64,000 bases of DNA from an uncultured virus (IMG/VR IMGVR_UViG_3300032242_002374) (lineage: Duplodnaviria > Heunggongvirae > Uroviricota > Caudoviricetes): the IMG/VR virus record IMGVR_UViG_3300032242_002374, one strand, 5' to 3'. The translations under genes were made by a program, and so were the position numbers. This document shows positions 5,482 through 44,442 of this stretch, piece after piece. Every line of letters starts with the position of its first letter. The first letter of the stretch is position 1. The notes under the pieces are model-generated. The model was not told the origin of the DNA. It worked only from the letters and a program-made list of their open reading frames with translations, and made no database searches.

Positions 5482-6297
5482 CTACTTTTTATATTTTAAA
5501 AGCCTTTGTTTTATATGTTCTTGTGCGGTTTGGTGGTTGTAAATTGCCTTGCCTTTATCATTTCTATAATGAAGCATAGGATTGATTAATTGCTTATAGT
5601 CTTTTCGCATAAAGTCATTTATAGCATTGTCAAAGTCAGCATCACTAAATCTGCCATATATCTTTCTCCTATCTATATCGGCATAACAAAAGAATCTTTC
5701 ATCTCCAACATCATATTTAGCATCTACCATACTTTCCATTATTGATAGGTACTCATACTTATCCTCAAACTTCTTTGAGTGCTTCTTTACACTTTCTGTT
5801 TGCTTATGGAAACGAATAATATTTGCGTTCTGCCAAACCTTAGAAGTAATACGACCTATGGACTGATAGTGTAATATAATATCCAACCCAATATGCCTAT
5901 TGGTACATATTGCTCCAGAAAGGTCATTTGGCATACTATCACTTATATACCTATTAACATCTTCTATAAGTAATAAACCATTCCTATATGTTTCTAATAA
6001 TATAAATAGCGTTTGTGTAATATCGTCAAGGCTCATCTTCTTAGTATAACTACCATTTGCTTCTAAGAATGGTCTTATACGCCTAATCTCGACTTGTGGG
6101 TGTATGGAAAATAAAGGAACTTGCTCTAATGATATTGGTCTGTAATTGTATTCATCGTTTACATCCATAATCAAAACACGTCTTGGGGGAGTTGTTGAAC
6201 TACCCCTAACGTATTCTTGCATCATTTTTTCAGTTGCATAGGATTTGCCAACACCTTTCATCCCTACTGCAACCATTAACTTGGCTTCTCTACCCAT
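5482..6297 (-). CDS. A32-like (FtsK-HerA superfamily) genome packaging ATPase
   Basis: Walker A GMKGVGKS, VLIMD strand, Walker B LLLIED, arginine-finger/sensor motif NRHIGLDIILHYQS; ~270 aa. Confidence 0.8.
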   Translation of the reverse strand: MGREAKLMVAVGMKGVGKSYATEKMMQEYVRGSSTTPPRRVLIMDVNDEYNYRPISLEQVPLFSIHPQVEIRRIRPFLEANGSYTKKMSLDDITQTLFILLETYRNGLLLIEDVNRYISDSMPNDLSGAICTNRHIGLDIILHYQSIGRITSKVWQNANIIRFHKQTESVKKHSKKFEDKYEYLSIMESMVDAKYDVGDERFFCYADIDRRKIYGRFSDADFDNAINDFMRKDYKQLINPMLHYRNDKGKAIYNHQTAQEHIKQRLLKYKK

Positions 6298-14089: not shown

Positions 14090-14950
14090 TTATTTGCCCA
14101 TTTCTTTCCAAGCTCTTGCTACTGCTGATTTCCACGCTTCCCCATCTTTTCGTGTAGCTTTTGCGTGAGCAATTACTTCTTTCATCTTGTTTGTTTGTGG
14201 GTTAGCTTTCTTAGTGCCAGTAACCTTTTTGCCTTCTTTTTTTATCATAATAGATTTTCTTTTTGTTTTTTCATCTTTAGGGATAATAACATAAGAAGGT
14301 TTTATTACTTCTTGAACAATCCCATTCCTTACAACCAGTTTATCGTCTTTGAAAATATTTTTTGTTTCGCCATTAATTTCTGCGTGTACTTGTCCGTTTG
14401 GTTCTATCCAAATATTACCTGCTAGACTTTGTAATTTTGCCCCATTTTTACCATCAAATTCTAAAACAGTTTCACCTATTTTATTTGACATTTTCCCACC
14501 GTCAGACATTTCACCACCTTTGGCAAAGTTACTTGTTACTTTGTATATTTTATCAAATCCAACTGTTTTAGGGCTTTCATTTTTGCTATGCAATTCAATA
14601 CCGTAGTTTGTATATAGTTCAACACTTTCAATACCTTTTGTATTAGCCGTTTCAGCCATTTCTCTTGCATCTTCTTTGTCAATCATATATTTGCTTTCAT
14701 CTTCAACAAAAGCAACCACAATAGCTTTATTACCTTTTCTGCCAACATAGTAATCTATTCCACTCTTTTTAGTAGAATAGTTTAAATCGCTATTTGTTTT
14801 TGCACCCATAGCTTTTAAGTATTCTAAAGGGCTTTTATGTTCGCTATGTAATGTCCCACTTATACCACCACCTTTGGCATACTTCTTATCTTCTGTAAAG
14901 GCACTTACTAAAAAACCTCCTCCTACTAAACCTAATATTAATGGTAACAT
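14090..14950 (-). CDS. membrane-anchored multi-module protein with xxGG linkers
   Basis: N-terminal TM; YAKGG, FAKGG, MSDGG; basic C-terminus; possible degenerate restriction-endonuclease-like module. Confidence 0.65.
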   Translation of the reverse strand: MLPLILGLVGGGFLVSAFTEDKKYAKGGGISGTLHSEHKSPLEYLKAMGAKTNSDLNYSTKKSGIDYYVGRKGNKAIVVAFVEDESKYMIDKEDAREMAETANTKGIESVELYTNYGIELHSKNESPKTVGFDKIYKVTSNFAKGGEMSDGGKMSNKIGETVLEFDGKNGAKLQSLAGNIWIEPNGQVHAEINGETKNIFKDDKLVVRNGIVQEVIKPSYVIIPKDEKTKRKSIMIKKEGKKVTGTKKANPQTNKMKEVIAHAKATRKDGEAWKSAVARAWKEMGK

Positions 14951-18164: not shown

Positions 18165-20981
18165 TTATTTATTTTTACTAATTCTTTCATTCCATTTAGC
18201 AGTACGAGAACCTACGATTCTTTTTGCTGCTTGTTCGGCTTCTTTTGGGGAATATGTTTTACCATAATCCTTTTGAACCTTTGGTGATACTTTTTTTGTT
18301 TTCAGCAAAGATGCTTTAACTGCTTTAACTTTATCTGAGAATTTTACTTTGCCTCCCATAGCCATTGTAGGCTGGAATAATTCTTTTATTTCATCTTTTG
18401 TAAAATAAGCTATTTTTTCTTTAGGTTTTGATAGTTTCTTACCCAAAGTTGAGTGTGTTTCTATTTGTTTAACTTTCCAGCCTTTATTAGTTGGCTCTAT
18501 AAGTTCAATAGTAATGTAATCATAGTGTTTATGTTTCATTACTTCACCACCCATAGCCATTTCACCACATTTTTCTTTCATCTCGTGTTCACCTAACTTA
18601 GCTATACTTTTAGAAACATACTCCCAATAATAAGGAGTAACTTCCCTTGCTATTTCATCTGCACTATAAAATGTAGGTAAGTTATCAATAACTAATAACC
18701 CTTTTTCTTTTGAATATTTTACAGTAGTATGCTTATCAATACCTTTTTCTTTTAAATATTCTTTTACCTTTTTAGTCATTGAAAGAGAACTCATTTCGCC
18801 CCCCTTCTCCATTTTACTAACAGTTTCTTTAAAACTTTCTTTTGGGTTTTCAATACCTAAAGACTTCAATGTAACCTCTGCTACTACTTTATAGTTTTTG
18901 TCTCCATCGTAGTCGCTTAATGCTTCGTTAGCATCTTCTCTAAATTCCCAGCCACTTATCGCTTTTTTGTTTTTCAAATCAACTATAAAGTATTTGTAAG
19001 CATCTACTTCTTTGTTGTATTGCTTTTGAGAACGAGATAAACCACCACCTTTAGCATATTCTTTTTCTTTTATAACAAATGGAATATCATTTTCTTGTCT
19101 TTCATTTGCTTCATAAAAAGTTTCTACATTATGCCAATTAGGTACTTTAAAAATTCTACTTGAACCACCGTAATTTTTATTTGGGTACAATGAAATACCT
19201 TTTACCCCATCTCTAATAACAATTTCGCCAGATTCTTCTTTGGGATTATTGCTATAATCAAAAGAATGATAAACAGCAGGAGTGCCTACTTTAAACTTAT
19301 CTGAAATTTCACCACCTTTAGCCATCATTTCACCACCCATAGCCATTTTACCATTAAATAATTCATTGATAATTTCTTTTGCTATATTATTAGTTAAAGG
19401 CTCATAAATGTTAAATATGCCATATTCCTTGATTTCTTTTTTTTCTGATATTTTATTATTAAAATAAACCATTTTACCATTATCAGAGAACCCAAGATTT
19501 ACGCCCCCCTCTTCGTCAGCTTTAGCTTCATAAGGATTTATATTTTTATACCCACCAATATCAACTTTTTTATTTGGCATAGAAATTGGATACCCACCAT
19601 ATCCACTTTCTCCATACACAACCATTTTTTTGCTTCTTTCTCTTATTTTATTCCAAAGTAAATCTATTGCATTTTCAATACCACCACCTTTAGCATACCC
19701 TTTACCTAAATAAGCATCAGCCCAATGCTCCATATACATATACAAAGCATCCCTACCCTTGTTGCCTCTTTGTTTTAACTGTTTTTTAAACATTTGATTG
19801 TTCTTATAAACAGTATTTGCTTTTTGTTCAAGATGTTTTTCAAGTTTAGCAATAGTTTCATCTGCTTTTTTAATCAATTCTGGTTGGTCTTGCTTAGGTA
19901 CTTTATTTTTTTCAAAATACTTATACATTGCTACATTTTCTGCAATCATACCAACTATAATAGGCGTATCTTTTTCAATAGTGCCACCTTTTTCATATTG
20001 CCCTGCTGTAACGTGATATTCTAATTCAACGTGAATAGTATCATTAAGTTTGTCAAAATCTTTTTCTTTATACTCTTCTGCTTTTGCTCTACCAACGTGG
20101 TCTAGTAAAAAATGACTTCTTTGTGTAGTAGTCCATTCGTCCCATACTTGCTCTGCTGTTTTACCAGCATATTGATTTTTTATTTCCCCACCATCTTCAA
20201 ATTTTGCTCCATCTAAGTAGTGAGTAATATCACTAAGGTCTGTTGATGCTCTTTCTATTTTACCAACAACCCACGCCTCTATTGGTGTTTTATCAGTAAT
20301 AATATTTGAAAGTTCTTTTGCGTGATGTTCAACTGCTTTTAATTGGCTTTGCAGCATCTCATTGTTAGAATTGGCTATTTCACCACCATCTTCCATTTTA
20401 TGACACCCACAATCAGTTGTGCCACCAGTTGCAAATTTTTGTTTAAAACCACCTGTTGCTACTTCTACTCTATCTGCATCATAATAGTTAATATCATTCC
20501 CAGTAAATGATGTAGTTGCTGTATCTATATAACTTTTGCCAATACGTTTAAAAAACTCGCTATCGTCATTGTTTATATTAGAACTTGCCCAGCCACATTT
20601 ATTCCAATGTTTAACCATTTCTGAAATCCTATCACTTACTTCGCCACCTTCTTCAAACTTTTCACCACCTCTTAGCCTTAAATACAATATTTGTGCATTC
20701 ATAGGCTGAAAGAACTTATCACGTTCCAAATGTAATTCAAACGGAGGCACTTTAATAGTCTCTAAGTCATTCCTACTTACGCTACCTATTTCTACATCAA
20801 ACAAATCTATAATAGCCCAAATATAATCTGGGTCTTGTGGGTCTGAATTAAGTAGATACCACGTTCCATTTGAATATGGGTTAAATATTTTAGCAACGAC
20901 CTCTTGTTTAGAGAGGTCGCCACCAAATTTATATTGTTCAAATAATTTTTTGTCTATGTCTGCTGTAAACAACTTTGCCAT
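18165..20981 (-). CDS. polyvalent protein with N-terminal DUF2958 and about 12 xxGG-delimited modules
   Basis: KIFNPYSNGTWY...EIGSVS...LERDKFF (DUF2958); repeated FEEGG/MEDGG/YAKGG/MAMGG. Confidence 0.75.
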   Translation of the reverse strand: MAKLFTADIDKKLFEQYKFGGDLSKQEVVAKIFNPYSNGTWYLLNSDPQDPDYIWAIIDLFDVEIGSVSRNDLETIKVPPFELHLERDKFFQPMNAQILYLRLRGGEKFEEGGEVSDRISEMVKHWNKCGWASSNINNDDSEFFKRIGKSYIDTATTSFTGNDINYYDADRVEVATGGFKQKFATGGTTDCGCHKMEDGGEIANSNNEMLQSQLKAVEHHAKELSNIITDKTPIEAWVVGKIERASTDLSDITHYLDGAKFEDGGEIKNQYAGKTAEQVWDEWTTTQRSHFLLDHVGRAKAEEYKEKDFDKLNDTIHVELEYHVTAGQYEKGGTIEKDTPIIVGMIAENVAMYKYFEKNKVPKQDQPELIKKADETIAKLEKHLEQKANTVYKNNQMFKKQLKQRGNKGRDALYMYMEHWADAYLGKGYAKGGGIENAIDLLWNKIRERSKKMVVYGESGYGGYPISMPNKKVDIGGYKNINPYEAKADEEGGVNLGFSDNGKMVYFNNKISEKKEIKEYGIFNIYEPLTNNIAKEIINELFNGKMAMGGEMMAKGGEISDKFKVGTPAVYHSFDYSNNPKEESGEIVIRDGVKGISLYPNKNYGGSSRIFKVPNWHNVETFYEANERQENDIPFVIKEKEYAKGGGLSRSQKQYNKEVDAYKYFIVDLKNKKAISGWEFREDANEALSDYDGDKNYKVVAEVTLKSLGIENPKESFKETVSKMEKGGEMSSLSMTKKVKEYLKEKGIDKHTTVKYSKEKGLLVIDNLPTFYSADEIAREVTPYYWEYVSKSIAKLGEHEMKEKCGEMAMGGEVMKHKHYDYITIELIEPTNKGWKVKQIETHSTLGKKLSKPKEKIAYFTKDEIKELFQPTMAMGGKVKFSDKVKAVKASLLKTKKVSPKVQKDYGKTYSPKEAEQAAKRIVGSRTAKWNERISKNK

Positions 20982-20992
20982 TAATTTATATT

Positions 20993-22807
20993 TTAATTGT
21001 TATTTCTGTGCATTTCGCCACCACCCTCATACTTACCCTCACCATAAGTCATACGAGGAGATGCTTTACGCACATAATCTTTTTCCCACTCTTGTTGAGA
21101 TGTATATTTTCTATCTCTTGCAATTGCTGAATTTGGTCTGTTATGCTTGAACATACCACCACTCTTAAAATGACCATCTTTAGCTTGCAACAAAACATCT
21201 TTAAGATTTGCCATAGTATATTCTATATCGCCATCACGTTCCAATATTTCTATTGCAGTATGTTTTACAGATTCAATTTCTTTTTTATTGTGCATATTTG
21301 TTAATGCTCCAATAGTATCATCTGTAACAATTGAATGCAAAGCATATTCAAGACCATTTTTACCTAAAGTACCACCGTGTTCAAGGCTTTGATACTTGCG
21401 AGAAGGGTGTTTATCAGATTTATCTGCTCTATTTTCAAAAGCAACATAATCAGGATATTGCTTTCTCATTTTTTCGCTTGGTGAATGACTTAATGATGCT
21501 CTATTGATAATGCCATCTTCTACTGCACTATCTTTCCATCTCCAACCACTTGGCTTTGCAAATCTATCTGCATCTAAGCTACCACCTTTAGCCATCATTC
21601 CATTAGAAACAACTTCTAACACATCTTGTGATAAATAATGAATACCCCCAGCAATTTCTACTTGAACTAATTGTTCATCATCCATAAGCTCTGTCATCAC
21701 AACTCCAACTGTGCCTACTTCAATATTTTCATCACCACCTATGTCTTCTGTTGACATAAATACAGTAGTTTTAACTTGGCTACCTTCTTTAAACATTGAA
21801 CTATAACCACCACCTTGAAGACCCAACATCTCTCTTAATTCTTCTTCTGTCGCTTCTTTTTCTTGAACAAGTTGCACATAAAATGAATAATTCGCACTAT
21901 ACAATTTCATTTCATCTTCTTTCCACAATTCTATTTCACTATCTGTTGCTGGAACATTAGCTTCATCTACTAACATTGAAGTTGACATAACACCATCTTG
22001 TATATCAAAATCTTCTTTGCTTACATCTTTATATAAAATGTTTGTAGAGATGTATCTTATTAAGTCATCTACAAACTCAAATGTTTTATGCACTTTGCCA
22101 TCAAAGCTATTAAGATGGCTGCCTTCTCCCTCTTCGTAATTATCTTCGTACACATCGGCAACCCAATATTTCAAATTTACTTTGTAATGATGTTCACCAC
22201 TAACATCGCCACCCTCTTCTAATCTTGGGTACTTTTTAGGGTTTCTATCAGTTCTGTTCTCACGATTTTCGTAATATACATTACCTTGTTTTGAAATTCT
22301 TTTACCTGCTGGTAATGCAGCCCTTTGAGCATCTTTTTCAAGGTCGCCTTTTGATGTAGAAATATGTTGTTTTTTACGATATTTCATAGCAATTTTTCTT
22401 GCTCTATCTATTGCAGCACTTGAAGTCTTTTTAGCTTTAGGCTCTATAACTTTTTTTGGAGCAACTGCTTTAGCTTTAGCCGTTTTAACAATATTTACTG
22501 GCTTTTTAGGTTCTGCTTGTTTAACCTTTTCTTTTAGCTTATGTAAAATCTTGCTTGTTTTTTTAACAATCTCTTTGCTTTGCTTTACTTCTTTAACAAC
22601 TTCCTTTTTAGCTTCTTGCTTTTTTTCAACAGTAGGTGAAGGTTTAGCTGCTGCTTTTTCAGCATCTTCTAGTTCCTTTAGTTGCTTTTGTGCATCTTCA
22701 AGTTGAGCCTTTACTTTTCCTTTAAAACTTTCTGGTAATGCAGGGTTATTAAGACCGTCTTCCAACTTCTTTATGTTATCTTCTAATTGTGTTTTTGTAA
22801 CAGACAT
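20993..22807 (-). CDS. polyvalent protein with Lys/Ala-rich region and xxGG-delimited modules
   Basis: Histone-H1-like K/A region; LEEGG, MAKGG, LEHGG, FKSGG, YEGGG; duplicated D..R.A.P.G.R...ENR motif. Confidence 0.7.
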   Translation of the reverse strand: MSVTKTQLEDNIKKLEDGLNNPALPESFKGKVKAQLEDAQKQLKELEDAEKAAAKPSPTVEKKQEAKKEVVKEVKQSKEIVKKTSKILHKLKEKVKQAEPKKPVNIVKTAKAKAVAPKKVIEPKAKKTSSAAIDRARKIAMKYRKKQHISTSKGDLEKDAQRAALPAGKRISKQGNVYYENRENRTDRNPKKYPRLEEGGDVSGEHHYKVNLKYWVADVYEDNYEEGEGSHLNSFDGKVHKTFEFVDDLIRYISTNILYKDVSKEDFDIQDGVMSTSMLVDEANVPATDSEIELWKEDEMKLYSANYSFYVQLVQEKEATEEELREMLGLQGGGYSSMFKEGSQVKTTVFMSTEDIGGDENIEVGTVGVVMTELMDDEQLVQVEIAGGIHYLSQDVLEVVSNGMMAKGGSLDADRFAKPSGWRWKDSAVEDGIINRASLSHSPSEKMRKQYPDYVAFENRADKSDKHPSRKYQSLEHGGTLGKNGLEYALHSIVTDDTIGALTNMHNKKEIESVKHTAIEILERDGDIEYTMANLKDVLLQAKDGHFKSGGMFKHNRPNSAIARDRKYTSQQEWEKDYVRKASPRMTYGEGKYEGGGEMHRNNN

Positions 22808-28450: not shown

Positions 28451-28772
28451 CCCAATTAAATTTTGTTAATGTTTGAATATATGAAATAATTTCGTTGCTA
28501 TCCATAAAAACATCTGGCATCATATCCATTTCATAAAATTTGCCATTTGGTTCTATCAAAAAGTTTATTATTTCTGTTTGAGGTATTAAGTAATCATCAA
28601 GCCCAGTTATCTTAGACCATATAACTACAATATTGTCATCTTGCTCATTTGCTTCATTTTTCAAAGTCGTAAAGCTACAATAAGTATTTGTATCATAGCC
28701 AACATATTGACTGCAATTTTTAGTGTATTGCTCGTGCAATGATGATACCGTTTTTTTTTGCTCTATTGTCAT
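28440..28772 (-). CDS. hypothetical protein
   Basis: Overlapping ORF in operon. Confidence 0.6.
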   Translation of the reverse strand: MTIEQKKTVSSLHEQYTKNCSQYVGYDTNTYCSFTTLKNEANEQDDNIVVIWSKITGLDDYLIPQTEIINFLIEPNGKFYEMDMMPDVFMDSNEIISYIQTLTKFNWDAK

Positions 28773-30085
28773 TTTGATAATCTTGAAATTTGACTTATTA
28801 CTGTGTTATAAGCATCTTCGGCTTGTTCTCTTGACAATGCTATTGGGATAACAATTTTAGTATTAGGTCTTGTTGCTGCATCTCTATCAGATTGACTTGT
28901 TTGCTTAGATAAATACTCCATATAAGCATCTTTTACTTGTGATGTATCTGTAATTGGAATTGCAACCCCTTTTTGCATATCAGTTCCCCAAGCACTATCA
29001 TACTGCATAGCTAATTTTAACTTAAAATTTTCAACCCTATAAAACCTTGCATCAGATGAAAGTATTGCAACTTGGTTAATATCTAAATTTTGATTTTCAT
29101 TTTTTATATTTACAAAAGAAAAGTTCTTTTTACCTATACCTTGTAAACGCCCCCTAACACTTTTATACATTTCTCCATCGTAAGAAGCTAATATTCTATA
29201 ATTAACATTTGACTTAGATAATTTTTCACAAATAGAAATTATAGCAATAGAATTGTAAAATATTTCAGATGCAGTTTTTTTAGAAGAAAAAGAAGGTAAT
29301 ACTATCAAATCTATTCTTGGCAAAGGATTTTTAGCCTTTTCTATGTTTATAAAACACTTTTTGAATGTCGTTGTAAACATAGGTTTTCCATTAGAACCTA
29401 TCTTTTGCCTTTGCTCTACTTGGTGTCTTGGTATTTCTTCTTGCTTTGGATAAAAATACAAATAAGCATTAGCACTACCTAAAGGCTGTTCCACTATTTC
29501 TAAGTCTTTCTTATCAACCAATCTCCCCAAAATATTACTATAAAATCCACCTTTACTTTCGTTGTATTTTACTTCGTGTCTTGGAATGTATTTTTGCCCT
29601 ATAAAATAAAAATTCTTGTTTTCGCTTACAACAAAATTACCATCTATTGTTGTTTTGAATAGTGGAGAATAATACTCATACACTTTTATCAAACCTAAAG
29701 ATGCTAAGTCATACGAAAATATACCAACTTCTTTTTCGGTAAAATGAATACGTTTTACTTGGTCTATATCAATTACATCAGCTTTAGCAATTTTACTTCT
29801 TAAAATCTCAACTTCTTGCTCTAATTCTTGTATTTTAATGTAGTTATTAATTGGATTTAAAACCCAACTTGTATCAATAGTTCCATACCAATTAATACCT
29901 TGATTTCTTACTAAATTGTCAGCACTATTTTTGGCATTTTGTGCATTTATATAATCTTCAGTAGCATTATAAGCAGTACCCCTCAAAGGTATTTTTGAAA
30001 TTACCTCTTCTGAAAATTTCTGCATATCTGTAATACTATCAAAGTAATAGACTACTTTATTGTTATTTATAATTTCTTTACGCAT
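28769..30085 (-). CDS. vWA-like partner of MoxR ATPase (degenerate MIDAS)
   Basis: Directly downstream of AAA+ gene; beta-alpha pattern IDLIVLPSFSS...AIISICEKL. Confidence 0.5.
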   Translation of the reverse strand: MRKEIINNNKVVYYFDSITDMQKFSEEVISKIPLRGTAYNATEDYINAQNAKNSADNLVRNQGINWYGTIDTSWVLNPINNYIKIQELEQEVEILRSKIAKADVIDIDQVKRIHFTEKEVGIFSYDLASLGLIKVYEYYSPLFKTTIDGNFVVSENKNFYFIGQKYIPRHEVKYNESKGGFYSNILGRLVDKKDLEIVEQPLGSANAYLYFYPKQEEIPRHQVEQRQKIGSNGKPMFTTTFKKCFINIEKAKNPLPRIDLIVLPSFSSKKTASEIFYNSIAIISICEKLSKSNVNYRILASYDGEMYKSVRGRLQGIGKKNFSFVNIKNENQNLDINQVAILSSDARFYRVENFKLKLAMQYDSAWGTDMQKGVAIPITDTSQVKDAYMEYLSKQTSQSDRDAATRPNTKIVIPIALSREQAEDAYNTVISQISRLSK

Positions 30086-32540
30086 TTACTTTAAAATAGT
30101 CTGCTACAAAAAGTTGTTTGTATTTTTCTAATTGTGTACTTGCATTTTCAGAAACTACACTTGTTAGTGTTTGCACAATTTTACCATCAATAACTTTTTT
30201 AATGCAGCCAGATACTTCTTTTTGTATGAAAGCAGTAGTTAAGCCTGTATTTTTTATAATATTAGCTTGTGTAGCATCATTGTTAAAAGCAATCATAAAA
30301 CTATCAAATGCTTTGTCTAATGTTTTGCCCTCATTTAATATTTTAGCACCTTCACTTTCTGCAATCTTACGAACTAACTGAAACTCGAATGCTACTCTAA
30401 ATGCAGTTAATGTACGATAACTAACAACAGCCAACTCATCAAGTCCTAAATCTTTTAAAACAGTTCTTAACCCTTTTGCTTGTGGCTTAGTGGTTTTGTT
30501 TTTGATAGCATCCATATACTCATAGTAGTTACCTACAAGCATATCGTATAAGAATTGGAAACGGCAAAATTGCTCGTCTAATGCTTTTGACGGCATTACT
30601 TTATACACACTACCACTAAATCTATCTAGCAATGATAAATCTTGTTGATTGTTTGCACGATACTCTGGTGGCGGGGCTTCATTTGGATAAATGTTACCAG
30701 TAGCAATAACAGCAAAGTCGTTGCTTCTTGGTATTGGTGGCATATCTGGGTTTGCCGAATTTATTGATGGGTTTTGATTAGTTTTAGAAGACTTTGCCAA
30801 AGCATCATTAAACAAACCTGCTGTGTTAGGGTCTAAACGAGGCATTTCATCTAAAATCAATATTTTACCATCTCTCCACGCTTGTATTAACTTGCCATCT
30901 TTGTAGCCTTCAATACTTTGCCCACCAATTACTTCAATTGGCGAAGTGTATTGAGAACAATTTATTACAGTATATTCTCTTTTTAGCTTTTTTGTAACTA
31001 ATTCAGCAAGGTAAGTATTGTGCGTTACAATGTAATTATCTGTAATATACAAATGTGATGGATTTGTTACAGAAATACATCTAACAGGCATTTCGCCTAT
31101 ATAATAAACTTCATCAATAAATCTTTTTACCTTATACTTTGTAGGCTTTTTATATTTCTCTAATTTAGAGCCTAAGCTAAATGGAATAATTTCGTCAGGG
31201 AAAACACAAGTTATTCTATAATTTAAAGCACCCTCTCTTTTTTCGCCATTGTGAGTATAAACAGGGACTCTACTTTTTATTTTAGCTGTTCCTCCTAGAC
31301 TTCTTACTAATTCGCAATAATCTTCTGATAGTTGATAGCTTGATGTAGAAAACTCAAAATTAAAGTCGCCATAATAAGCATCGGTATCATTTAATCCTTG
31401 TAAAAGTAATGTTCTATTTTCTATGCTATCATATAAATAATCTTTTGGTATAAATTTATTAATTGATTTATGACCTGCCAATCCTAATGTATGAATCTCT
31501 TCACCAAAAATGTTAGCTGTTTTTGCACTTTTTCTTGCAATTGAATAAGTCAAACATCTATCATCACAATTTACTTTGTTTAATTGCAGGTCTTCGTGTA
31601 TTTCAAGACTATCAAAAAGTTCTTGAGATGGATTGGTTATTGATATTGTTTCTGTTGTAACACAGCCATCCCCTAAAATAACACCCATCAAGTATGGACT
31701 AATTATGTGTTTTTTAGCTTCAAATTGTATTGGCTTATTGACATCTATAAAAGCATTTGCTAAACCTGTTTTAGTTTTTATATTAGCCATAAATTCTTTC
31801 AAAGGAAGAACTTTACCTTTTCTTTTTTTACCCCTATCATTTCTTGTGTATATTTTCCACAAATGTTCATCACAAGTCTCTGCAAACGAGCCATCATTCA
31901 TAAAAACTCTATAAGTAGGCTTTACGCCTCTATCATAAACTCCATTTATTTCATAAAGTTTACCATCTTCGCCAAATACTTTATCGCCAACTTTTACATC
32001 TGCAAAAGTTATCCATCCATTATTTGAAAGTATTTTAGATGTTAATGGTTGAGCTTTACCCAGTCCAGCACCACCAATTAAATACACGTTATTCCCTGCT
32101 AAAACATCATCTAAAATGTCATAGAAAAAAGGTATTTGCTCTTCTTGCTTAGTTACTTCAACCTTTACTCCACCAAAATTGGGGAACTCTAAAATTATCG
32201 TTTGGTTTTTCTTAATTTCATCAATCACATCTTTACTTAAATCGTCAAGATTGATTTTTTTATTTTGGAAATACTCATTGATTAATTTATTTACTTGGTC
32301 GCTGTCAACACCACTATTAGGTGTTTCTTTCATAAATGCCGAAAGCATAGCTAATGTTTCGTCAGCATTAAATGATGCTTCTTCATCAACTGTTGCTACT
32401 TCATTACTTTCAATGGTTTGTAACTCGGTTTCAAGGCTTTGTATTCTTTCAAAAACAGATTCTTTAAATTCAGGGTCTATAATATCAATAGATTCTCTCA
32501 AATCTTTTAAGTCTGAAATGATTTCTTCTTTTCTTGTCAT
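30078..32540 (-). CDS. MoxR/CobS-like AAA+ ATPase, intein-containing
   Basis: Walker A GGAGLGK[intein]T, Walker B LILDEM, IATGN, DLSLLDRF. Confidence 0.85.
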   Translation of the reverse strand: MTRKEEIISDLKDLRESIDIIDPEFKESVFERIQSLETELQTIESNEVATVDEEASFNADETLAMLSAFMKETPNSGVDSDQVNKLINEYFQNKKINLDDLSKDVIDEIKKNQTIILEFPNFGGVKVEVTKQEEQIPFFYDILDDVLAGNNVYLIGGAGLGKAQPLTSKILSNNGWITFADVKVGDKVFGEDGKLYEINGVYDRGVKPTYRVFMNDGSFAETCDEHLWKIYTRNDRGKKRKGKVLPLKEFMANIKTKTGLANAFIDVNKPIQFEAKKHIISPYLMGVILGDGCVTTETISITNPSQELFDSLEIHEDLQLNKVNCDDRCLTYSIARKSAKTANIFGEEIHTLGLAGHKSINKFIPKDYLYDSIENRTLLLQGLNDTDAYYGDFNFEFSTSSYQLSEDYCELVRSLGGTAKIKSRVPVYTHNGEKREGALNYRITCVFPDEIIPFSLGSKLEKYKKPTKYKVKRFIDEVYYIGEMPVRCISVTNPSHLYITDNYIVTHNTYLAELVTKKLKREYTVINCSQYTSPIEVIGGQSIEGYKDGKLIQAWRDGKILILDEMPRLDPNTAGLFNDALAKSSKTNQNPSINSANPDMPPIPRSNDFAVIATGNIYPNEAPPPEYRANNQQDLSLLDRFSGSVYKVMPSKALDEQFCRFQFLYDMLVGNYYEYMDAIKNKTTKPQAKGLRTVLKDLGLDELAVVSYRTLTAFRVAFEFQLVRKIAESEGAKILNEGKTLDKAFDSFMIAFNNDATQANIIKNTGLTTAFIQKEVSGCIKKVIDGKIVQTLTSVVSENASTQLEKYKQLFVADYFKVNA
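31017..32054 (-). mobile_element. class 3 intein (346 aa) with LAGLIDADG homing endonuclease, inserted in the P-loop
   Basis: Starts AQPL, block B CDEHLW, block F VRCISV, ends VTHN before T; MGVILGDG and LLQGLNDTD motifs. Confidence 0.9.
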
Positions 32541-32542: not shown

Positions 32543-34129
32543 TTATTTTTTTAATAGTATTTGTAAAACTTTTATTTTTTTTGCTGCTAATTCATCACCA
32601 TATTTTGCTAAAACAGATAATGCTTTTATCTTCATTTCAATTACTTCGGCTGTGATAGCTTGTTCTTTATCAAAAATAGAAAATAATGTTGGGAACACTT
32701 CTTTAATTCTTTGTAACCTTGAAGATTCTGTTGTATAATTAGGGAAACGTTTTACATCATAATTTAATAAACAAAAATAATTCACAATTTTATAAAACTC
32801 TTCTTTTGTAAGTTCCATCCCCTCTTTACCCAAATTATTAAATAAATTATTGGCTTTTTGATATTCAGCATCATTTGTAGGCTTGTTATAAAATAGTGCA
32901 TCAAAAAAACAAGACACTAATTCTTGGTAAGCCCATAAGTTACTCCACATATTAGGGTTTGCATCAGTAACACCAACATCCCATCTATCAGCAAAAACTT
33001 CGTTACCTGCAACATCATATACAAATTTCCATTCTACATAATGTTTGTCATAACCACGCTTTTCTAAGTCACCAATATTATCCGCAATGAATTTAGTAGC
33101 TTGTTTGAATGACTTAAATGTTCTTGGCAATAGTTCAACATATTCTGGTAACCCTTCTGAATCTTTAATAGTAAAGAAATCTAATTTAGGATTGTCTGGA
33201 ATAGATTTGTAAGATTCATTAACAACAAATTCTTTATTGCCTTTTTTCTCAAACTCACTTAACAAATAATTCCATTGGTCAGCATTCATCAAATACTTTA
33301 ATGACATACGTTCAGCAAACATATTATAGTCATTGCTTAGGTCAAAATCTTCTTGATTTTCACGGTAAACAATATCAAATGCTGTTGCTGGTGATTTATC
33401 AGTTAAATTTTGTTTGCTTAATGTAGTAGTAGAAGTAGATGGCGTTGTAGCCACATAATATTTTCCTATTACTTCATACAATTTATTTATTATTTGAGTA
33501 TAATTATCTTTTTTAGATAAATCCCCCCAATGTTGAAATGATTGTGTTTTAGGCGACCACTTAAATCCTGTTTCTGTATATACTTCGCCTCTAATTTCAT
33601 TCCATTGGTCTTTATTAGCTGCAACCGATTTATCTTTTACAAAATTGTAAACAATTCTGCCATCGTCAAGAGTTTTATTGTATAAAGTCCAACCATTATT
33701 ATAAGAAATAGTATCACCCCATTCCCAGCCTTTACCTCTATTGCTACTAACACTTTTAGTAGTAGGTTCAGTAACAGTAAAAGGTTTATCCCATTTGCCA
33801 ACTTCTATGTTCAAATAGAAATTTTTAACCCTATGGTTGTCTCCTCTTTCGTAACTTGTTTGATACTCTTTAGCAATTTCATAAATATTTTTTACTACAT
33901 CAACCCCCTTGCTTGTTAAGCCAGTTATTTCATTGATGTAATATGTGTTTATTTGCTTGGTATTAACATTTTTTTCGATAAAAGGATAAAAGTCTGCTCC
34001 TAACCAATAAATATATAAGCTATCTGTCATACCTCTTTCGGAAGTAACAGAAAAGTTATAATTAGGATATTTTTTGTATAACCTATCCTTTACTTTTTTT
34101 GAAACATCTTTTATATCGTAATTACCCAT
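32543..34129 (-). CDS. polyvalent protein with LPD29-like and LPD25-like domains
   Basis: KKVKDRL.KKYP..NFSV...SLYIYW (LPD29-like); DSEG...GYDK...DRWDVG (LPD25-like). Confidence 0.6.
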   Translation of the reverse strand: MGNYDIKDVSKKVKDRLYKKYPNYNFSVTSERGMTDSLYIYWLGADFYPFIEKNVNTKQINTYYINEITGLTSKGVDVVKNIYEIAKEYQTSYERGDNHRVKNFYLNIEVGKWDKPFTVTEPTTKSVSSNRGKGWEWGDTISYNNGWTLYNKTLDDGRIVYNFVKDKSVAANKDQWNEIRGEVYTETGFKWSPKTQSFQHWGDLSKKDNYTQIINKLYEVIGKYYVATTPSTSTTTLSKQNLTDKSPATAFDIVYRENQEDFDLSNDYNMFAERMSLKYLMNADQWNYLLSEFEKKGNKEFVVNESYKSIPDNPKLDFFTIKDSEGLPEYVELLPRTFKSFKQATKFIADNIGDLEKRGYDKHYVEWKFVYDVAGNEVFADRWDVGVTDANPNMWSNLWAYQELVSCFFDALFYNKPTNDAEYQKANNLFNNLGKEGMELTKEEFYKIVNYFCLLNYDVKRFPNYTTESSRLQRIKEVFPTLFSIFDKEQAITAEVIEMKIKALSVLAKYGDELAAKKIKVLQILLKK

Positions 34130-37100
34130 ATACTCTATTTATAAAATCATTAACGTAATCAACCGCATCATTTACTTTTTCAGAAACAAAATTATGTGTT
34201 TTTTGTGGAATATTGCCACCAGAAGCAAAAGATACTCCACCATTTGATACGTTCATATCACTTGCAATTTCTCTTGTAGTCATCATTTTCCCATTGTACT
34301 CATATTTTTTATCGCTTGAAACTGCACCTCTTGTTAAAATAACTTCACCCCCAGAATATTCTATCGGATTACCTTTCCCATCATTTTTAACAGATGCCCC
34401 TTTTTCTAATTTTTCTTCTATCTCGCCACCCATTTTAAATGACTTACCTCCACCTTCTACGTTCAAATGTGAAAGTATTTCTCTGTTAGTCATTTTTTTA
34501 CCATTAAATTCTTTTAATGTAGAATCTGAAACTGCTTTTGAATTTAACTGTATTTCTTCTCCCTCAACTTCAATTCTTTCACCAGTTGCTTTGTTAATAC
34601 CATCTATACCACCCTCACTATGCCTTTTGCCAACAAATATGCCACCTAAATCGCCATCATTGTGTGCAATCAATTTTCCATCTTTTTTACCTAATAAGAA
34701 CCCCCCAGCATCCATTTTAGTATCTAAACCCATTTTATTTCGTAGCGAAAATGCTCGGCTTTGATTTTGTGCATCTATAACAATATCTGTTTCTTTTACA
34801 TCTCCACCCTCTTCAAATCTTATATCTTTATTCATAGGGTCAAAATTTATATTTCTGCCATCTGCTAATTTAACTTGACTTGCATCGAAAATAGTCCACG
34901 CTTTTGTAAATTGTGCTGGGTTGTTTTCGTCATAATTAGTTGGGTCAAACTCTTCACTATACCTTACACCATCATACCCATTAACTATAAGAAAGGTTTT
35001 AAATGTTTTGTTGTAATCTTTTGCCATAATATTCCAAAAAAGAAAACTTCTATCTTGAAAAGTATCTTCAAAATACTTTTCTAATTGGCTTTTAGTAGCT
35101 TTTAGATAATCATTAAAAACAGCTTCATCTATTACACTACCCTCTTTGTCAGCATATATTTTTTTTGTTAAAGTTAATATCCAACCATCTTTGTTTTTTC
35201 TAATCTGCTCAAATTCGCTACCTAATGCAAAGAATGGATTGTTTATTTTTATAAATGCTTTATACAATAATGCTTTTGCATCACCCCTAAGTAATCTTTG
35301 TGAAATACTTGGAACAAAATTTTGAGAATATTGTATATTGTCAGCAAAATAAGCATAAGGTCTTCCTTCTTGATTTTTTGCCATTGCATCAAACTCAAAA
35401 AACTCTTTCATAGCACTACTACCGTGATATACTACAAGTGGCTCTAATGTTATTAAATTTATAACCTTAGAAACATTTTTATAGTGCTTTTCAAAATTGG
35501 TTCGTTTGTCTGCTAAAAAGTTTTTTGCAGCAAGTTCCCAATCACCGAAATATTTTTTAAATTCAGTTGTCCTTACTAAAACTTGTTGCACATATTGAAG
35601 CATAGTATAAGCCCCAGTTGGTGTTGGGAATGTATAAATACTATCTACTTCTGCACCATTGCTGTAACTTCTTTTTATACTGCCATAATATTTGTCAATG
35701 TCTTTTGGTTGCTCCATAATTTCTAATTTTTCATAATAGTCAATCATTTCGTCAAGATGCTGCAAAGCAATTGTTTTTTGCACATCTAGCGAATTGCTAT
35801 GTTCCGATTCAATTTTTATTCCCTTTTCAAGTTGCTCATTTGCATATTGCAAAGATACATTTTTTTCTTTGGCTATTTGTTTTATGGTTTTGTGAGGCTT
35901 GAAAAGACTACCTTTGGCGTATTCTTTATTGTCATATTCTAATATTTCAATAGGAACATTAAGCCCATTACTTTTGATAATTTCTATTACACCTTTAACA
36001 TCTCTACCTTCTTTTATTTGCTTTAAAAAAGAACCACTATCAATAGCATCTTGAACTAATTTTTTTGATAACGCTTTTTTGGGTGTGTCTAACTTACCTT
36101 GAAATTGCTCTGCTATTGTATAATTTGTAGCATCATTTTTTGAAACTAATAAAAAAGGGTACAATCTTTTTTCACTTCTTAATTGGCTATTATTTTCAAC
36201 TATAACCCTATCAGAATCTTCTGCTAATTTTTGTAATCTTCTTATTATTTTTTGGTCTGAACGAACATTATCGCCTAATATAACAGCTAATTTTACTACA
36301 TTATCTGTTATTGATAATAGTCCTATTGTTTCGCTTGTTTTAGCATCAAAAACACTTCCATTTACAAAAAGTAAGCTATAAATATTATCGTCATATACAT
36401 CAATAGTTTCTATTTGTTGCTGACTGAATTTTTGTCCTTTATTATTTCCACCAGTAAATTCAAAATCCCAATCTGAAACTTCTCCACCTTTGGCATAATT
36501 GTTCAAAGCACTTTTAATTTCTTGAATAAAGTTATTTTTTTGAATACTGTTTACTTTTTGGCTATCTTTAAAATCAAATCTATCCATAAGTTCTAATAAA
36601 CCAATTGTTCCATAAGTACCAAATTTAGTTTCCCTTACATTTTCTGCCCACATATCAAAGTCTTTTTCATTTTTTATGCTATTCCATTGATTGAAAAGAT
36701 TATTTATTACAACGCCATTGCCTTCATTTAAAACAACTTCAATCATTCCACCTTTAGCATACCTTATATCAGCGTTGTTTGCATCGAATGTTGTGTTTGT
36801 GCCATCGGCAAGTTTTATGTTTTGAGGAGTTTCATTAAAAACCAAAAATGATGTCCCTACATAATCTAGCCAATCATCAGTTTTTTGCATCAATTCAAGA
36901 ACATTATCGGCTCTTATCCCATCTACCTTTTCAACTCCAAATTTACCATCTCTAAGAAACTCAATAGCATCATTACCATTTGCCCATTTATAACCTGCAT
37001 CTACTTGTAAATTATTATACCCATCCTTATTTGTACCTAATTTAGCATCAAATTGTTTTATTTTTCTAATGTTTAGGAATACTGGATATACCTTGCTATA

Positions 37101-39176
37101 CCATTTATCTATTTCTTTTTCAATTTCATTAAACTCCCTATTACTCTTTACATTTTCTTGTAATTTTTCAAGTTTAGCTATTTCTTTAATTCGCTGTTCA
37201 TCGGCTTCTTTAGTATATTTACTTGAATTTCTATATAACTCTGCAACGTTTTTATTTGTAGTAAAAAATATGCCATATTCTTTTAAACCAGAACTTTGTC
37301 TTTTAGATTGCCTAATATCAAAAATGTTTATACCACCATACCTACTTCCGTGATACACTACCATTGGCTCTCCATTAGAATCTACAACTTTTGAAACATC
37401 TTTTGATAAATTTTCTAAGGTAATTTCATCAATACCAGAATCATTAATTTTTGCATAAGCTAATTTCTCCCAGTCGCCAAAAAATGCTTTGAATTGTGGT
37501 GTGCGAACAAGTTTATACTGCTCTGGTGTTAAGTTACTCGGCTTACCATTAGGTGCAAGTAATTCTAAACTACCACCTTGCTCAAAATTATTTTCTTTAC
37601 CTAAAAACTTATTCATATCATATTTTACAACCCTATTATCTTTTGTTTCAACTTCTACATACCCTTTTTCATAATCACTACTTAAATAAATAACATCTCC
37701 AATTTGTGAATAAGAATGAGTTATTTTATCGCCTTTTTTATAATTAGCAAATGGGTCTGTATTGTTTAATAAATGTATTATAGCATCAGTTGAATAATAT
37801 GTTAAGTTCAAATCAATAGAACTACCTAAATTATTACTTTTTGACTTTTCATCAAACTTTGATATATGGTCACTTAGTCTAATTCTATCATAATACCCAT
37901 TCCCACCATACCAAGAATTTGTATTTTTACTTTTTGTAAATTTTATACCAGTTTGTTTTGATATTTCTAAAATTTCATTTTCAAAAACACTTTCTATTGT
38001 TCCACCATCGTCATAACTCTTAACACTATAACCCAATTCATTTATTAAATCATCGTCTTGCTTGTACTTACCAGATTTGCTTTTGCCGTGAATTATTTTG
38101 TACATAAAAGCATTTAGCCTTGTCAATCCCCAAGCAACTCTACTATTTGGCTTACCACCACTTATTGTAGGTCTATGTGTTGAAGAATATGCACCCATAC
38201 CTCTGCGAACAACAGCTTTTGCACTTGCTAATGTAATTTTCTTGTTAGGGTGTTGCTTATTATGTTCTCTTACTTTCTCATTTATTGAAAGTAATGTTTT
38301 AGCATCGAATTTTATTTCTTTAGCACTTTCTGTATCTTTTGAAGAGCCTTTAGCATTTACATTGCTTCCATATACTTTGTCTTCTTTTGGTGCAGGAGTT
38401 TGCGAAATTGTACCACCACTTTCATACTTTTCAGGATTATGCCCCCAAATAAGCAAAGAAGTGTGCTTTCGAGTTTTGTTCCCTTTATCGTCATACAACC
38501 CACCTTTATTGCCACTCATTCTGCTTATAAATGATATTTGTCGTTTTGCCCACTCACACATTTTAGGTGTCCAATTTTTATGTGGTATATCTTTCATTTT
38601 CATTATCCACCTTGCACTCTCACGCCCACTATGTATTCCTAATTCATTTGCTTTGCTGCTACTTAAACCAGCTTTTTTGCCTTCTTCGCTATTGTAAAAG
38701 TTATCTAATTCACTTTTACTCATATTTACTAATGACTTCCATTTTTTGTAGGTTTCTTCGTGGTCTGAAATTTTACCGCCTTCTGCAAATTCATTTTTTA
38801 TTTCTTCTTTTTTTACAAACTCACTAAAATTTGCTTTTGCTAAAACGTAAGGTTTTCTTTTCCATAACCAATCAGGTATTTGATTATTTAATAAAGTCCA
38901 AGTACAAGTTGCAACATAGCCCCAATGGTCTGATATTCTATAAACATCATTCCCATCTATTACATATTGAGAATACAATCCAAAAGCATTGGGTGATTTT
39001 TTAAAAATTGTGCCATCTTGTTTCTTTAATTCATTAAATTTATCCCAAGCCTTATCGCCTACATTCTGTATATGCCAACCACATTTTGTATTTAAGTAAA
39101 AATTATCTTTATTTATTTTATTATAAATTTCGCCTCCATCCCTATTGAATGATGCTATTGTTTTATACATTATCAA
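34122..39176 (-). CDS. 1684-aa polyvalent protein: DUF3140-like, DUF5824-like, two ART-PolyVal ADP-ribosyltransferase domains, DUF5661-like
   Basis: LVNMSKSEL...SLLIWGHNP; VRRGMGAY...WGLTRLNAF; two VRT..FK..FGDWE...P.VVYHGS...KLADG.N..FD....DIR domains; GIKIESEH...IALQHL.E..DYY. Confidence 0.75.
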   Translation of the reverse strand: MIMYKTIASFNRDGGEIYNKINKDNFYLNTKCGWHIQNVGDKAWDKFNELKKQDGTIFKKSPNAFGLYSQYVIDGNDVYRISDHWGYVATCTWTLLNNQIPDWLWKRKPYVLAKANFSEFVKKEEIKNEFAEGGKISDHEETYKKWKSLVNMSKSELDNFYNSEEGKKAGLSSSKANELGIHSGRESARWIMKMKDIPHKNWTPKMCEWAKRQISFISRMSGNKGGLYDDKGNKTRKHTSLLIWGHNPEKYESGGTISQTPAPKEDKVYGSNVNAKGSSKDTESAKEIKFDAKTLLSINEKVREHNKQHPNKKITLASAKAVVRRGMGAYSSTHRPTISGGKPNSRVAWGLTRLNAFMYKIIHGKSKSGKYKQDDDLINELGYSVKSYDDGGTIESVFENEILEISKQTGIKFTKSKNTNSWYGGNGYYDRIRLSDHISKFDEKSKSNNLGSSIDLNLTYYSTDAIIHLLNNTDPFANYKKGDKITHSYSQIGDVIYLSSDYEKGYVEVETKDNRVVKYDMNKFLGKENNFEQGGSLELLAPNGKPSNLTPEQYKLVRTPQFKAFFGDWEKLAYAKINDSGIDEITLENLSKDVSKVVDSNGEPMVVYHGSRYGGINIFDIRQSKRQSSGLKEYGIFFTTNKNVAELYRNSSKYTKEADEQRIKEIAKLEKLQENVKSNREFNEIEKEIDKWYSKVYPVFLNIRKIKQFDAKLGTNKDGYNNLQVDAGYKWANGNDAIEFLRDGKFGVEKVDGIRADNVLELMQKTDDWLDYVGTSFLVFNETPQNIKLADGTNTTFDANNADIRYAKGGMIEVVLNEGNGVVINNLFNQWNSIKNEKDFDMWAENVRETKFGTYGTIGLLELMDRFDFKDSQKVNSIQKNNFIQEIKSALNNYAKGGEVSDWDFEFTGGNNKGQKFSQQQIETIDVYDDNIYSLLFVNGSVFDAKTSETIGLLSITDNVVKLAVILGDNVRSDQKIIRRLQKLAEDSDRVIVENNSQLRSEKRLYPFLLVSKNDATNYTIAEQFQGKLDTPKKALSKKLVQDAIDSGSFLKQIKEGRDVKGVIEIIKSNGLNVPIEILEYDNKEYAKGSLFKPHKTIKQIAKEKNVSLQYANEQLEKGIKIESEHSNSLDVQKTIALQHLDEMIDYYEKLEIMEQPKDIDKYYGSIKRSYSNGAEVDSIYTFPTPTGAYTMLQYVQQVLVRTTEFKKYFGDWELAAKNFLADKRTNFEKHYKNVSKVINLITLEPLVVYHGSSAMKEFFEFDAMAKNQEGRPYAYFADNIQYSQNFVPSISQRLLRGDAKALLYKAFIKINNPFFALGSEFEQIRKNKDGWILTLTKKIYADKEGSVIDEAVFNDYLKATKSQLEKYFEDTFQDRSFLFWNIMAKDYNKTFKTFLIVNGYDGVRYSEEFDPTNYDENNPAQFTKAWTIFDASQVKLADGRNINFDPMNKDIRFEEGGDVKETDIVIDAQNQSRAFSLRNKMGLDTKMDAGGFLLGKKDGKLIAHNDGDLGGIFVGKRHSEGGIDGINKATGERIEVEGEEIQLNSKAVSDSTLKEFNGKKMTNREILSHLNVEGGGKSFKMGGEIEEKLEKGASVKNDGKGNPIEYSGGEVILTRGAVSSDKKYEYNGKMMTTREIASDMNVSNGGVSFASGGNIPQKTHNFVSEKVNDAVDYVNDFINRVYG

Positions 39177-43693: not shown

Positions 43694-43778
43694 CTTTAAT
43701 TATTTACTAATTTATAAAATACTTTTTTAATTATGTATTTTGAAATTTCCCAAGTTATTATCACAACAGCTACATTCA

Positions 43779-44192: not shown

Positions 44193-44442
44193 TTTTAATT
44201 CTTTTTAATTCAGCTATATTGTTGTTTAAATCTTGCTTTAATAAATCATTGTACCCATTTAAGTCTTCAATGTCTTTATAAAACATATTAATGCTATCTT
44301 GCTTTATTTTGTTAAGATGAGTAAGAGAATCTATTTTATGCGTGTCTTCTATTGTTTTTATAACTTCTTTAACTCCTTTTTTCTGTAATACAAGTAATAA
44401 AACAAGAATAGCTATTATTAATATTAAAATTGTGTTTTTCAT
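44101..44442 (-). CDS. N-terminal TM coiled-coil protein, possible i-spanin-like
   Basis: TM followed by a long coiled coil. Confidence 0.45.
   Translation of the reverse strand: MKNTILILIIAILVLLLVLQKKGVKEVIKTIEDTHKIDSLTHLNKIKQDSINMFYKDIEDLNGYNDLLKQDLNNNIAELKRIKNEKHKKDSIINSSSVHQLESILTERYNKGK

What the first reader, a model, noticed from the sequence alone, without database searches (positions are those of the whole stretch)
34122..39176. Polyvalent protein whose domain boundaries are marked by a [YFML]xxGG motif: candidate viral polyprotein
Seen: FAEGG, YESGG, YDDGG, FEQGG, YAKGG (twice), YAKGS, YSNGA, FEEGG, MDAGG, FKMGG, LEKGA and FASGG, usually followed by x-[IVLM]. They fall between recognisable domains (before and after DUF3140-like, after DUF5824-like, on both sides of each ART domain, before DUF5661-like). 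Known: adenovirus protease and ASFV pS273R (Ulp1-like clan) cleave virion precursors after Gly-Gly. Inference: a bacterial virus packages an effector arsenal as polyproteins released by di-Gly cleavage. The motif could instead be a packaging tag or a DNA microhomology (TATGCyAAAGGTGG) for module shuffling. No protease is visible in this window.
Basis: partly seen in the sequence, partly recalled or inferred. Interest (0 to 1): 0.85.

Follow-up and report, generated by a model that had tools for sequence, protein, structure and literature searches.

The report
Viral polyprotein with built-in candidate cutter
An undescribed group of apparently tailless bacterial viruses strings swappable enzyme modules into one long protein, with a short repeated signal at every joint; the signal is probably a cut site, and a small domain inside the same protein, related to the tips of phage tail-ruler proteins, is the best candidate for the enzyme that cuts it, although no cut has been observed.

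Summary
[YFM]xxGG occurs 10 times (1.1 expected) in this 1684-aa protein and in three neighbouring proteins. It is enriched in 119 of 119 homologues, almost absent inside modules, and marks where relatives swap modules. It is selected as peptide, not as a fixed DNA site.

The Ulp1/adenain reading is not supported: neither family was found in 38 related virus records. Instead the protein ends in a small domain with near-invariant His/Glu/Glu/Asn ('HEG'), present in 15 of 15 near-complete relatives. It is homologous to the C-terminal domain of Bacteroidota tape-measure proteins and, more weakly, to crAss cargo protein 1 and lambda gpH.

T5's mass-spectrometry-mapped tape-measure cut is R|AEGG, and the resolved crAss001 gp45 domain starts at N|AFGG. 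So the cut probably falls after the Y/F/M residue, three bonds before the end of the Gly-Gly, and HEG is the candidate protease (about 45%).

No cut, packaging or binding was shown, and HEG-T5 homology did not exceed shuffled controls. If right, it names a new peptidase family and makes the unexplained cleavage of lambda gpH testable.

The parts
34122..39176 (-). 1684-aa polyvalent polyprotein with 13 motif sites
38787..39176 (-). Module residues 1-130, unknown; ends at F130|AEGG
38424..38786 (-). Module 131-251, DUF3140-like; 81 homologue hits
38013..38423 (-). Module 252-388, DUF5824-like through homologues; 89 hits
37584..38012 (-). Module 389-531, rare (2 hits); replaced by another module in the 95%-identical relative P0004
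36759..37583 (-). Module 532-806, ART-PolyVal ADP-ribosyltransferase 1
   Evidence: E 6.5e-14
35919..36758 (-). Modules 807-894 and 895-1086, unknown, rare (6 and 4 hits)
35664..35918 (-). Module 1087-1171, DUF5661
   Evidence: E 1.1e-12
34815..35663 (-). Module 1172-1454, ART-PolyVal ADP-ribosyltransferase 2
   Evidence: E 2.4e-13
34437..34712 (-). HEG unit 1 (1489-1580), intact: H1519, E1536, E1538, E1541, N1572; candidate protease
34227..34406 (-). HEG unit 2 (1591-1650), degenerate, lacks the His; packs on unit 1 in the model (pTM 0.81)
18165..20981 (-). 938-aa protein, 13 strict motifs, DUF2958 module, no HEG hit noted; predicted trans substrate
20993..22807 (-). 604-aa protein, 3 strict motifs (6 allowing L); predicted trans substrate
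14090..14950 (-). 286-aa protein, N-terminal hydrophobic segment, 3 strict motifs, basic tail
30078..32540 (-). AAA_5 (MoxR-like) ATPase with LAGLIDADG insert; a homologue lies within 6 kb of the HEG gene in 17 of 35 related loci
28769..30085 (-). DUF7192 protein, probable vWA-like partner of the AAA ATPase (inference); near the HEG gene in 10 of 35 loci
5482..6297 (-). P-loop ATPase, probable FtsK/HerA-type packaging ATPase (weak HerA hits; one PHROG hit labelled terminase)
4346..5080 (-). Conserved beta-sandwich protein, candidate single jelly-roll capsid protein (low-confidence model)

Best explanation
The gene encodes a virion cargo polyprotein: anti-host modules (two ADP-ribosyltransferases, DUF3140, DUF5824-like, DUF5661 and unknowns) joined by the signal [K/R]-[Y/F/M]-[E/A/K]-x-G-G-x-[I/V/L]. 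SHOWN: the signal marks module borders and exchange points, and is conserved as peptide. SHOWN: nearly every such polyprotein carries one intact His/Glu/Glu/Asn (HEG) domain, homologous to the C-terminal domain of Bacteroidota tape-measure proteins. INFERRED: the chain is cut after the Y/F/M residue (X|A-x-G-G, with GG at P3'-P4'), as mapped in T5 pb2. INFERRED: HEG is the protease. It binds the x-x-G-G-x-hydrophobic stretch as a beta-strand and hydrolyses the bond before it with the universally kept Glu (E1541) and a neighbouring Glu/Gln, possibly with a metal on H1519/E1536. It acts in cis on its own chain and in trans on the three other motif-bearing proteins. INFERRED: cutting occurs in the maturing particle or on entry and frees folded modules of 10-33 kDa. 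Recombination within the motif's codons then swaps whole modules without breaking processing.
For: Motif enriched in 119 of 119 homologues, 1270 vs 129 expected. Only 7 motifs in 71,383 residues of module cores, 0.1 vs 6.5 per 1000 overall. Module homologues, searched with the motif letters removed, are flanked by a motif or terminus on the left in 515 of 676 and on the right in 593 of 676 hits (null 107); 76 module orders in 119 proteins. 23 of 28 junctions in 8 close relatives lie at the motif, 12.7% expected. HEG is in 104 of 119 homologues and 15 of 15 near-complete related genomes. 243 of 252 HEG proteins keep a unit with H,E,[EQ],E; in 60 multi-unit proteins the first unit is intact in 51 and the second in 1. 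HEG vs Bacteroidota tape-measure C-termini: 99%. T5 pb2 is cut after R1127 (PMC10038345), which is R|AEGG directly before G-E-H-G-T-E. crAss001 gp45 portal-bound density starts at residue 425 (PMC10172136), which is N|AFGG. These viruses show no terminase (0 of 5) and G003 shows no portal by Pfam, so portal binding is unlikely to be what the polar residues are kept for.
Against: No cut, virion presence or catalysis was observed. HEG-T5 homology is by pattern only: scores did not exceed column-shuffled controls (15-28 of 40 shuffles as high). Links to lambda gpH and gp45 beat 40 of 40 shuffles, but with hhalign probability of only 4-32%. The structural match to gp45 is rank 1 but Z 2.7, and Pfam PF25725 does not match HEG. 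The HEG model resembles no known protease. 15 of 119 homologues lack HEG yet keep 5-13 motifs, so trans action or another enzyme is needed. The crAss001 authors read gp45 as one continuous chain and mention no cleavage. A lambda cut at F733 gives 12.5 kDa, against about 14 kDa reported.
Confidence: 0.45

Rival explanations
1. The motif is an uncut docking strand. HEG, or another virion protein, binds the copies by beta-strand addition to load or fold cargo in the particle, as gp45's domain docks on the crAss portal.
For: The gp45 domain is seen bound to the portal. In the HEG model the GG-x-hydrophobic stretches form ordered strands. One HEG locus per genome in most records would suit an anchor.
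Against: A tag need not sit at every module border or avoid module cores. Catalytic-type residues are kept in one unit and lost in the second. T5 is cut at the like motif.
Confidence: 0.2
2. The motif is cut, but by another enzyme: the PPPDE/LRAT-like cysteine protein found in some relatives (PPPDE peptidases cut after di-Gly; recalled), a host protease, or an unrecognised viral protease.
For: Complete relative G003 encodes a His/Cys protein matching Peptidase_C97, E 4e-7. 15 of 119 homologues lack HEG. About 41 kb of the window's own 105.6-kb contig was not available.
Against: That gene is in only 14 of 38 records and 8 of 15 near-complete ones, two with an internal TGA. Its NCEHF motif and C-terminal hydrophobic helix fit an LRAT-like lipid enzyme as well. 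HEG is in 15 of 15.
Confidence: 0.2
3. The motif is only a linker or recombination scar: a short shared DNA sequence through which modules are shuffled, with no role in the protein.
For: Junctions in close relatives start at the hydrophobic residue or end just after GG. The first Gly codon is GGT in 24 of 29 window sites.
Against: The codon bias equals that of non-motif GG pairs (46 of 66; p=0.21). Y, F, M and L interchange, and I/V/L is kept two residues after GG (1.5 bits), which is protein-level selection. The same motif brackets the domain in tape-measure proteins, where no shuffling is evident.
Confidence: 0.1
4. A clan-CE (Ulp1/adenain/pS273R-type) protease cuts after Gly-Gly.
For: Di-Gly is invariant. 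The virus looks tailless, with terminal repeats in 4 of 38 records, like the lineages that use such proteases (recalled).
Against: PF02902 was found in 0 of 38 records with a working control and PF00770 in 0 of 38 with a silent control. Neither appeared in the Pfam scan of 88 G003 proteins. The hydrophobic residue sits three places before GG, not two as in adenain sites (recalled).
Confidence: 0.05

Closest known systems
Polyvalent proteins of phages and conjugative elements (Iyer et al. 2017, PMC5512222; passages read)
   Same: Many effector domains in one chain, ART-PolyVal domains, shuffled architectures, proposed virion delivery and autoproteolytic release.
   Different: There the proposed enzyme is a zincin MPTase and most carriers use portal-terminase packaging. 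Here there is no MPTase hit in Pfam, a defined junction motif, a different candidate enzyme and apparently no terminase.
Tape-measure protein C-terminal processing: T5 pb2 (PMC10038345) and lambda gpH (PMC12617516); passages read
   Same: X|A-x-G-G-x-hydrophobic directly before a small domain with [E/H]-x-G-(x)-E; T5 is cut exactly there. For lambda the paper states that the site and the catalysis are unknown.
   Different: One cut in a structural ruler versus about 13 sites between effector modules. Homology to HEG is clear only for Bacteroidota tape-measure proteins, weak for lambda and not shown for T5.
crAss001 cargo protein 1 gp45, Pfam PF25725 (PMC10172136; abstract, passages, section 15 read)
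   Same: Virion cargo with several x-A-x-G-G motifs and one domain bearing GGSHE...VEQGEV, bracketed by motifs at 424 and 559.
   Different: Podovirus with a portal; the domain has large insertions; no effector modules; no cleavage reported.
Adenain, ASFV pS273R, Ulp1 (clan CE; features recalled)
   Same: Gly-Gly signal in virion precursors.
   Different: No such protease found; spacing differs; the predicted cut lies before, not after, the glycines.

Membership tests
Polyvalent proteins (Iyer 2017) | 2-15 diverse domains in one chain, including characteristic domains such as ART-PolyVal | tested here: met
Polyvalent proteins (Iyer 2017) | Encoded by a phage or mobile element | tested here: met
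   Homologous genes in IMG/VR virus records with conserved capsid-candidate and ATPase genes
Polyvalent proteins (Iyer 2017) | Packaged in the virion and delivered to the host | not testable with these tools
   No cultured member; inferred from ART modules and an ArdA module in a motif-bearing G003 protein
Clan CE di-Gly polyprotein processing | Ulp1-type (C48) protease gene in the virus | tested here: not met
   0 of 38 records, 0 of 15 near-complete; control rang. The window's own remaining contig was not searchable
Clan CE di-Gly polyprotein processing | Adenain (C5) protease gene | tested here: inconclusive
   0 of 38 records, but the control was silent
Clan CE di-Gly polyprotein processing | Cut immediately after Gly-Gly | not testable with these tools
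   The analogous T5 site is cut before A-x-G-G
Bacteroidota tape-measure C-terminal domain (unnamed) | Profile homology over GxxHxxGG...ExEGGE...LSxINxxGGGVxF | tested here: met
   hhalign 99.2-99.3%; HMM E 9e-11 and 3e-9 among 11 sequences
crAss cargo protein 1 domain (PF25725) | Pfam match above cut-off | tested here: not met
   No hit for P0002, nor among the 25 of 37 families shown for the 50 alignment members; gp45 itself hits at 9e-68
crAss cargo protein 1 domain (PF25725) | Same fold or remote homology | tested here: inconclusive
   Rank 1 of 48,161 chains but Z 2.7, rmsd 4.6, 75 aligned; ESM score 0.90; hhalign above 40 of 40 shuffles, probability 13%; crAssphage LMMB C1 91%
T5 pb2C-type cleaved domain | Statistical homology to HEG | tested here: inconclusive
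   Not above shuffled controls; pattern R-A-x-G-G ... G-E-x-G-x-E kept in 5 of 5 genuine T5-family tape-measure proteins aligned
Jelly-roll, FtsK/HerA-packaging viruses (Varidnaviria-like) | Vertical jelly-roll major capsid protein | tested here: inconclusive
   Model pLDDT 35; top four matches are viral jelly rolls, Z 6.6-7.6, rmsd 3.2-3.6
Jelly-roll, FtsK/HerA-packaging viruses (Varidnaviria-like) | FtsK/HerA packaging ATPase and no terminase | tested here: inconclusive
   HerA hits weak; one PHROG hit labelled terminase; Terminase_6N in 0 of 5 records, control rang

The most novel reading that the evidence does not exclude
HEG defines an unrecognised family of small glutamate-dependent peptidases that read their site on the prime side (X|A-x-G-G). 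One family would then cut lambda gpH, T5 pb2 and crAss gp45. A tailless, linear-genome lineage of bacterial viruses has taken it over from tailed phages and multiplied its site into a plug-in system for mixing anti-host enzymes, cutting several gene products in cis and in trans.
Probability: 0.35. Interest if true: 0.95.

Novelty: new variant of a known kind. Interest (0 to 1): 0.8.

Why it matters
How lambda gpH is cleaved, and where, is still stated as unknown in a 2025 paper (PMC12617516). This analysis gives a site (F733|A734) and candidate catalytic residues that single point mutants in laboratory phages can test. It also offers a simpler reading of why parts of crAss gp45 sit on both sides of the portal. 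For the virus itself, it describes a modular effector platform in an apparently undescribed lineage with genomes of 70-100 kb, and a possible new sequence-specific protease of about 85 residues.

Tried and rejected
Complex prediction of HEG (residues 29-161 of P0002) with a motif peptide (880-912): verdict 'no answer', score 0.01; used neither for nor against.

Foldseek of the HEG model against PDB gave no match at E<=0.001; the VIA second look gave none at Z>=2. BFVD gave only E>=0.02 matches to large uncultured-phage proteins. PDB sequence searches with P0002 and A1 were empty.

T5-family profile building was low in diversity. A cyanophage S-RIM14 hit was spurious and was dropped in the rerun, which still did not beat the null. 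The capsid-candidate model was built from only 6 sequences and is poor. The PPPDE/LRAT-like gene was rejected as the general enzyme, and a fixed DNA site was rejected. No own genome was available.

Literature searches found no listed paper whose title or abstract describes this motif or domain as a cleavage system or this virus group. Only listings were seen, and for only 25 of 111, 40 of 115 and 25 of 600 papers were listed; most subscription journals are not held. Paper supplements were not opened: the T5 mass data (figs S5G, S8C) and the gp45 peptide map may bear on the cut-site claims.
Full report
Observation. The 1684-aa ORF at 34122-39176 (-) carries all 13 motifs named. The strict form [YFM]xxGG occurs 10 times against 1.07 expected, and 0 of 2000 shuffles reached that. 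Three other ORFs in the window share it (13, 3 and 3 strict copies); the helicase, AAA, LPD29 and vWA-like neighbours are not enriched. Pfam confirms two ART-PolyVal domains, DUF5661 and a borderline DUF3140, each between two motifs. The DUF5824 call holds through 3 of 3 homologues checked.

The motif is a module border. A homologue search found 762 proteins, of which the best 120 were listed. In the 119 that are not the window's own, the motif occurs 1270 times against 129 expected, and all 119 are enriched. Searching with modules stripped of their motif letters, homologous modules are flanked by a motif or terminus on the left in 515 of 676 hits and on the right in 593 of 676, against 107 for random positions. 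Unit 2 of the C-terminal domain is the exception (left 5 of 83). Module cores hold 7 motifs in 71,383 residues, and the 119 proteins show 76 module orders. In 8 close relatives, 23 of 28 internal junctions fall within -6 to +10 residues of a motif (12.7% expected), several exactly at the aromatic residue or just after GG. The extended consensus is [K/R]-[Y/F/M]-[E/A/K]-x-G-G-x-[I/V/L]. Codons vary, and the GGT preference does not differ from non-motif GG pairs, so selection is on the peptide, while crossovers use the site.

A conserved polar domain inside the protein. Residues 1488-1657 hold two copies of an 85-residue unit, GG-x-L-V-G-K-x-H-x-E-G-G-I ... E-V-E-G-G-E-V-I-I ... L-S-x-I-N-x-x-G-G-G-V-x-F-A-x-G-G, here called HEG. 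It has 797 relatives at 50% clustering. It is in 104 of 119 homologues, mostly at one end, in 27 of 38 related virus records, and in 15 of 15 that are at least 90% complete. In 35 IMG/VR loci its host ORF has 217 motifs against 25 expected. H1519, E1536, E1541 and N1572 are invariant in a 50-sequence alignment. 243 of 252 proteins keep one unit with all acidic and His positions; where units are doubled, the second is nearly always degenerate. The model is confident (pLDDT 85, pTM 0.81) and matches no known protease. Its top match among 48,161 chains is the crAss001 gp45 domain at a weak Z 2.7, and the same family appeared by language-model features.

Relatives with experimental data. HEG hits tape-measure C-termini of Elizabethkingia and Cellulophaga phages and crAssphage cargo protein 1; profile comparison gives 99% and 91%. 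Links to the lambda gpH family and gp45 exceed 40 of 40 column shuffles but have low probability. The link to the T5 family does not exceed shuffles. In all these proteins the domain begins with X-A-x-G-G. T5 pb2 is cut after R1127 by mass spectrometry (PMC10038345, passages), and the T5 sequence there reads R|AEGGMM, followed by G-E-H-G-T-E-V-V. The portal-bound part of crAss001 gp45 is resolved from residue 425 to 552 (PMC10172136); residue 425 is the A of N|AFGG, and the next motif is at F559. None of the six gp45 segments named in that paper spans a motif site, which is weak support, as they are short, and the authors assume a continuous chain. Lambda gpH loses a peptide of about 14 kDa by an unknown enzyme at an unknown site (PMC12617516, passages); a cut at F733|ATGG gives 79.8 and 12.5 kDa. 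Other tape-measure structures also point to cleavage without naming an enzyme (PMC11972413, PMC10713586; passages). PMC11945409 (passages) did not mention cleavage.

Other enzymes. Ulp1-type proteases were found in 0 of 38 records with a working control, and adenain in 0 of 38 with a silent control. A PPPDE/LRAT-like protein in complete relative G003 is in only 8 of 15 near-complete records. The rest of the window's own 105.6-kb contig could not be searched.

The virus. A conserved beta-sandwich gene found 64 related loci in records up to 102 kb; 4 of the 38 records examined have inverted terminal repeats. G003 (72.5 kb, complete) shows no terminase, portal or HK97 capsid among 88 proteins scanned by Pfam, and Terminase_6N is absent from 5 of 5 records. 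The low-confidence capsid model best matches viral jelly rolls. With a HerA-like ATPase and many small membrane proteins, this suggests a tailless, membrane-containing virus. A Bacteroidota host is an inference from 30% GC and the nearest HEG relatives. The DJR survey PMC5894146 (passages) showed no such group in the passages seen.

Mechanism and verdict. Most likely the polyprotein is packaged and cut after each Y/F/M by its own HEG domain, releasing modules of 10-33 kDa. The three HEG-less proteins would be cut in trans. Polyvalent proteins and their proposed self-processing are known (PMC5512222, passages), and one is found in phi24B virions (bioRxiv 2026.04.10.717836, passages). The defined motif, the prime-side cut and the candidate enzyme were not found in the searches made. 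An earlier AI note on another genome also matched a like motif to the T5 site; I saw it after my own check, and it is not independent evidence. Nothing here shows a cut: about 70% that the motif is cleaved, and 45% for the full model.

Noticed in passing
window 1595-5080 and relatives L001, L003, L005, L014-L016: A second motif, N-[A/F/W/M]-x-G (NADG, NATG, NFAG, NWTG), recurs in the capsid candidate's N-terminal arm and in small membrane proteins: 22 observed vs 4.0 expected in small ORFs of relatives. It may be a separate maturation site.
   Followed up: partly
window 32543-32640 and 22852-22950: The LPD29 protein and the SNF2 helicase end in similar helical tails (I/K-x-x-L-x-x-L-A-x-x-G-D-x-x-A-x-K/R-x-I-x-x-L-x-x-L-L/I), seen by eye. 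This may be a second packaging tag on motif-free cargo.
   Followed up: no
window 12089-13285, 40426-41658, 44475-45704: Three IS200/IS605 TnpB-like genes in one virus window.
   Followed up: no
window 30078-32540: AAA_5 ATPase interrupted by a LAGLIDADG-bearing insert, probably an intein; the G003 homologue is 455 aa and has no such hit.
   Followed up: no
window 6498-11418 and 42464-55268: Two sulfotransferases, a 2OG-hydroxylase-like gene, a PAP2 phosphatase and several glycosyltransferases; G003 has an APS kinase homologue. This suggests sulfated or glycosylated virion or DNA modification.
   Followed up: no
window 22852-28450: Adjacent N6-methyltransferase and SNF2 helicase, resembling a split DarB-type anti-restriction pair (name recalled); neither is enriched for the motif.
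   Followed up: no
L016:6136-6609 (G003): PPPDE/LRAT-like His-Cys protein with a C-terminal hydrophobic helix, next to a capsid-candidate paralogue; in 14 of 38 records, two with an internal TGA.
   Followed up: partly
L014:3161-5926 (G003): ArdA anti-restriction domain inside a protein with 8 motifs.
   Followed up: no
L109:11988-14516 (crAss001 gp45): Motif sites at 206, 260, 329, 424 and 559 separate the tail-barrel segment from the portal-bound segment, so cleavage could replace the proposed 420-angstrom bridge.
   Followed up: partly
window 36747-36770 and 34803-34826: Both ART modules end in D-I-R-[Y/F], whose aromatic residue is the first residue of the motif.
   Followed up: no
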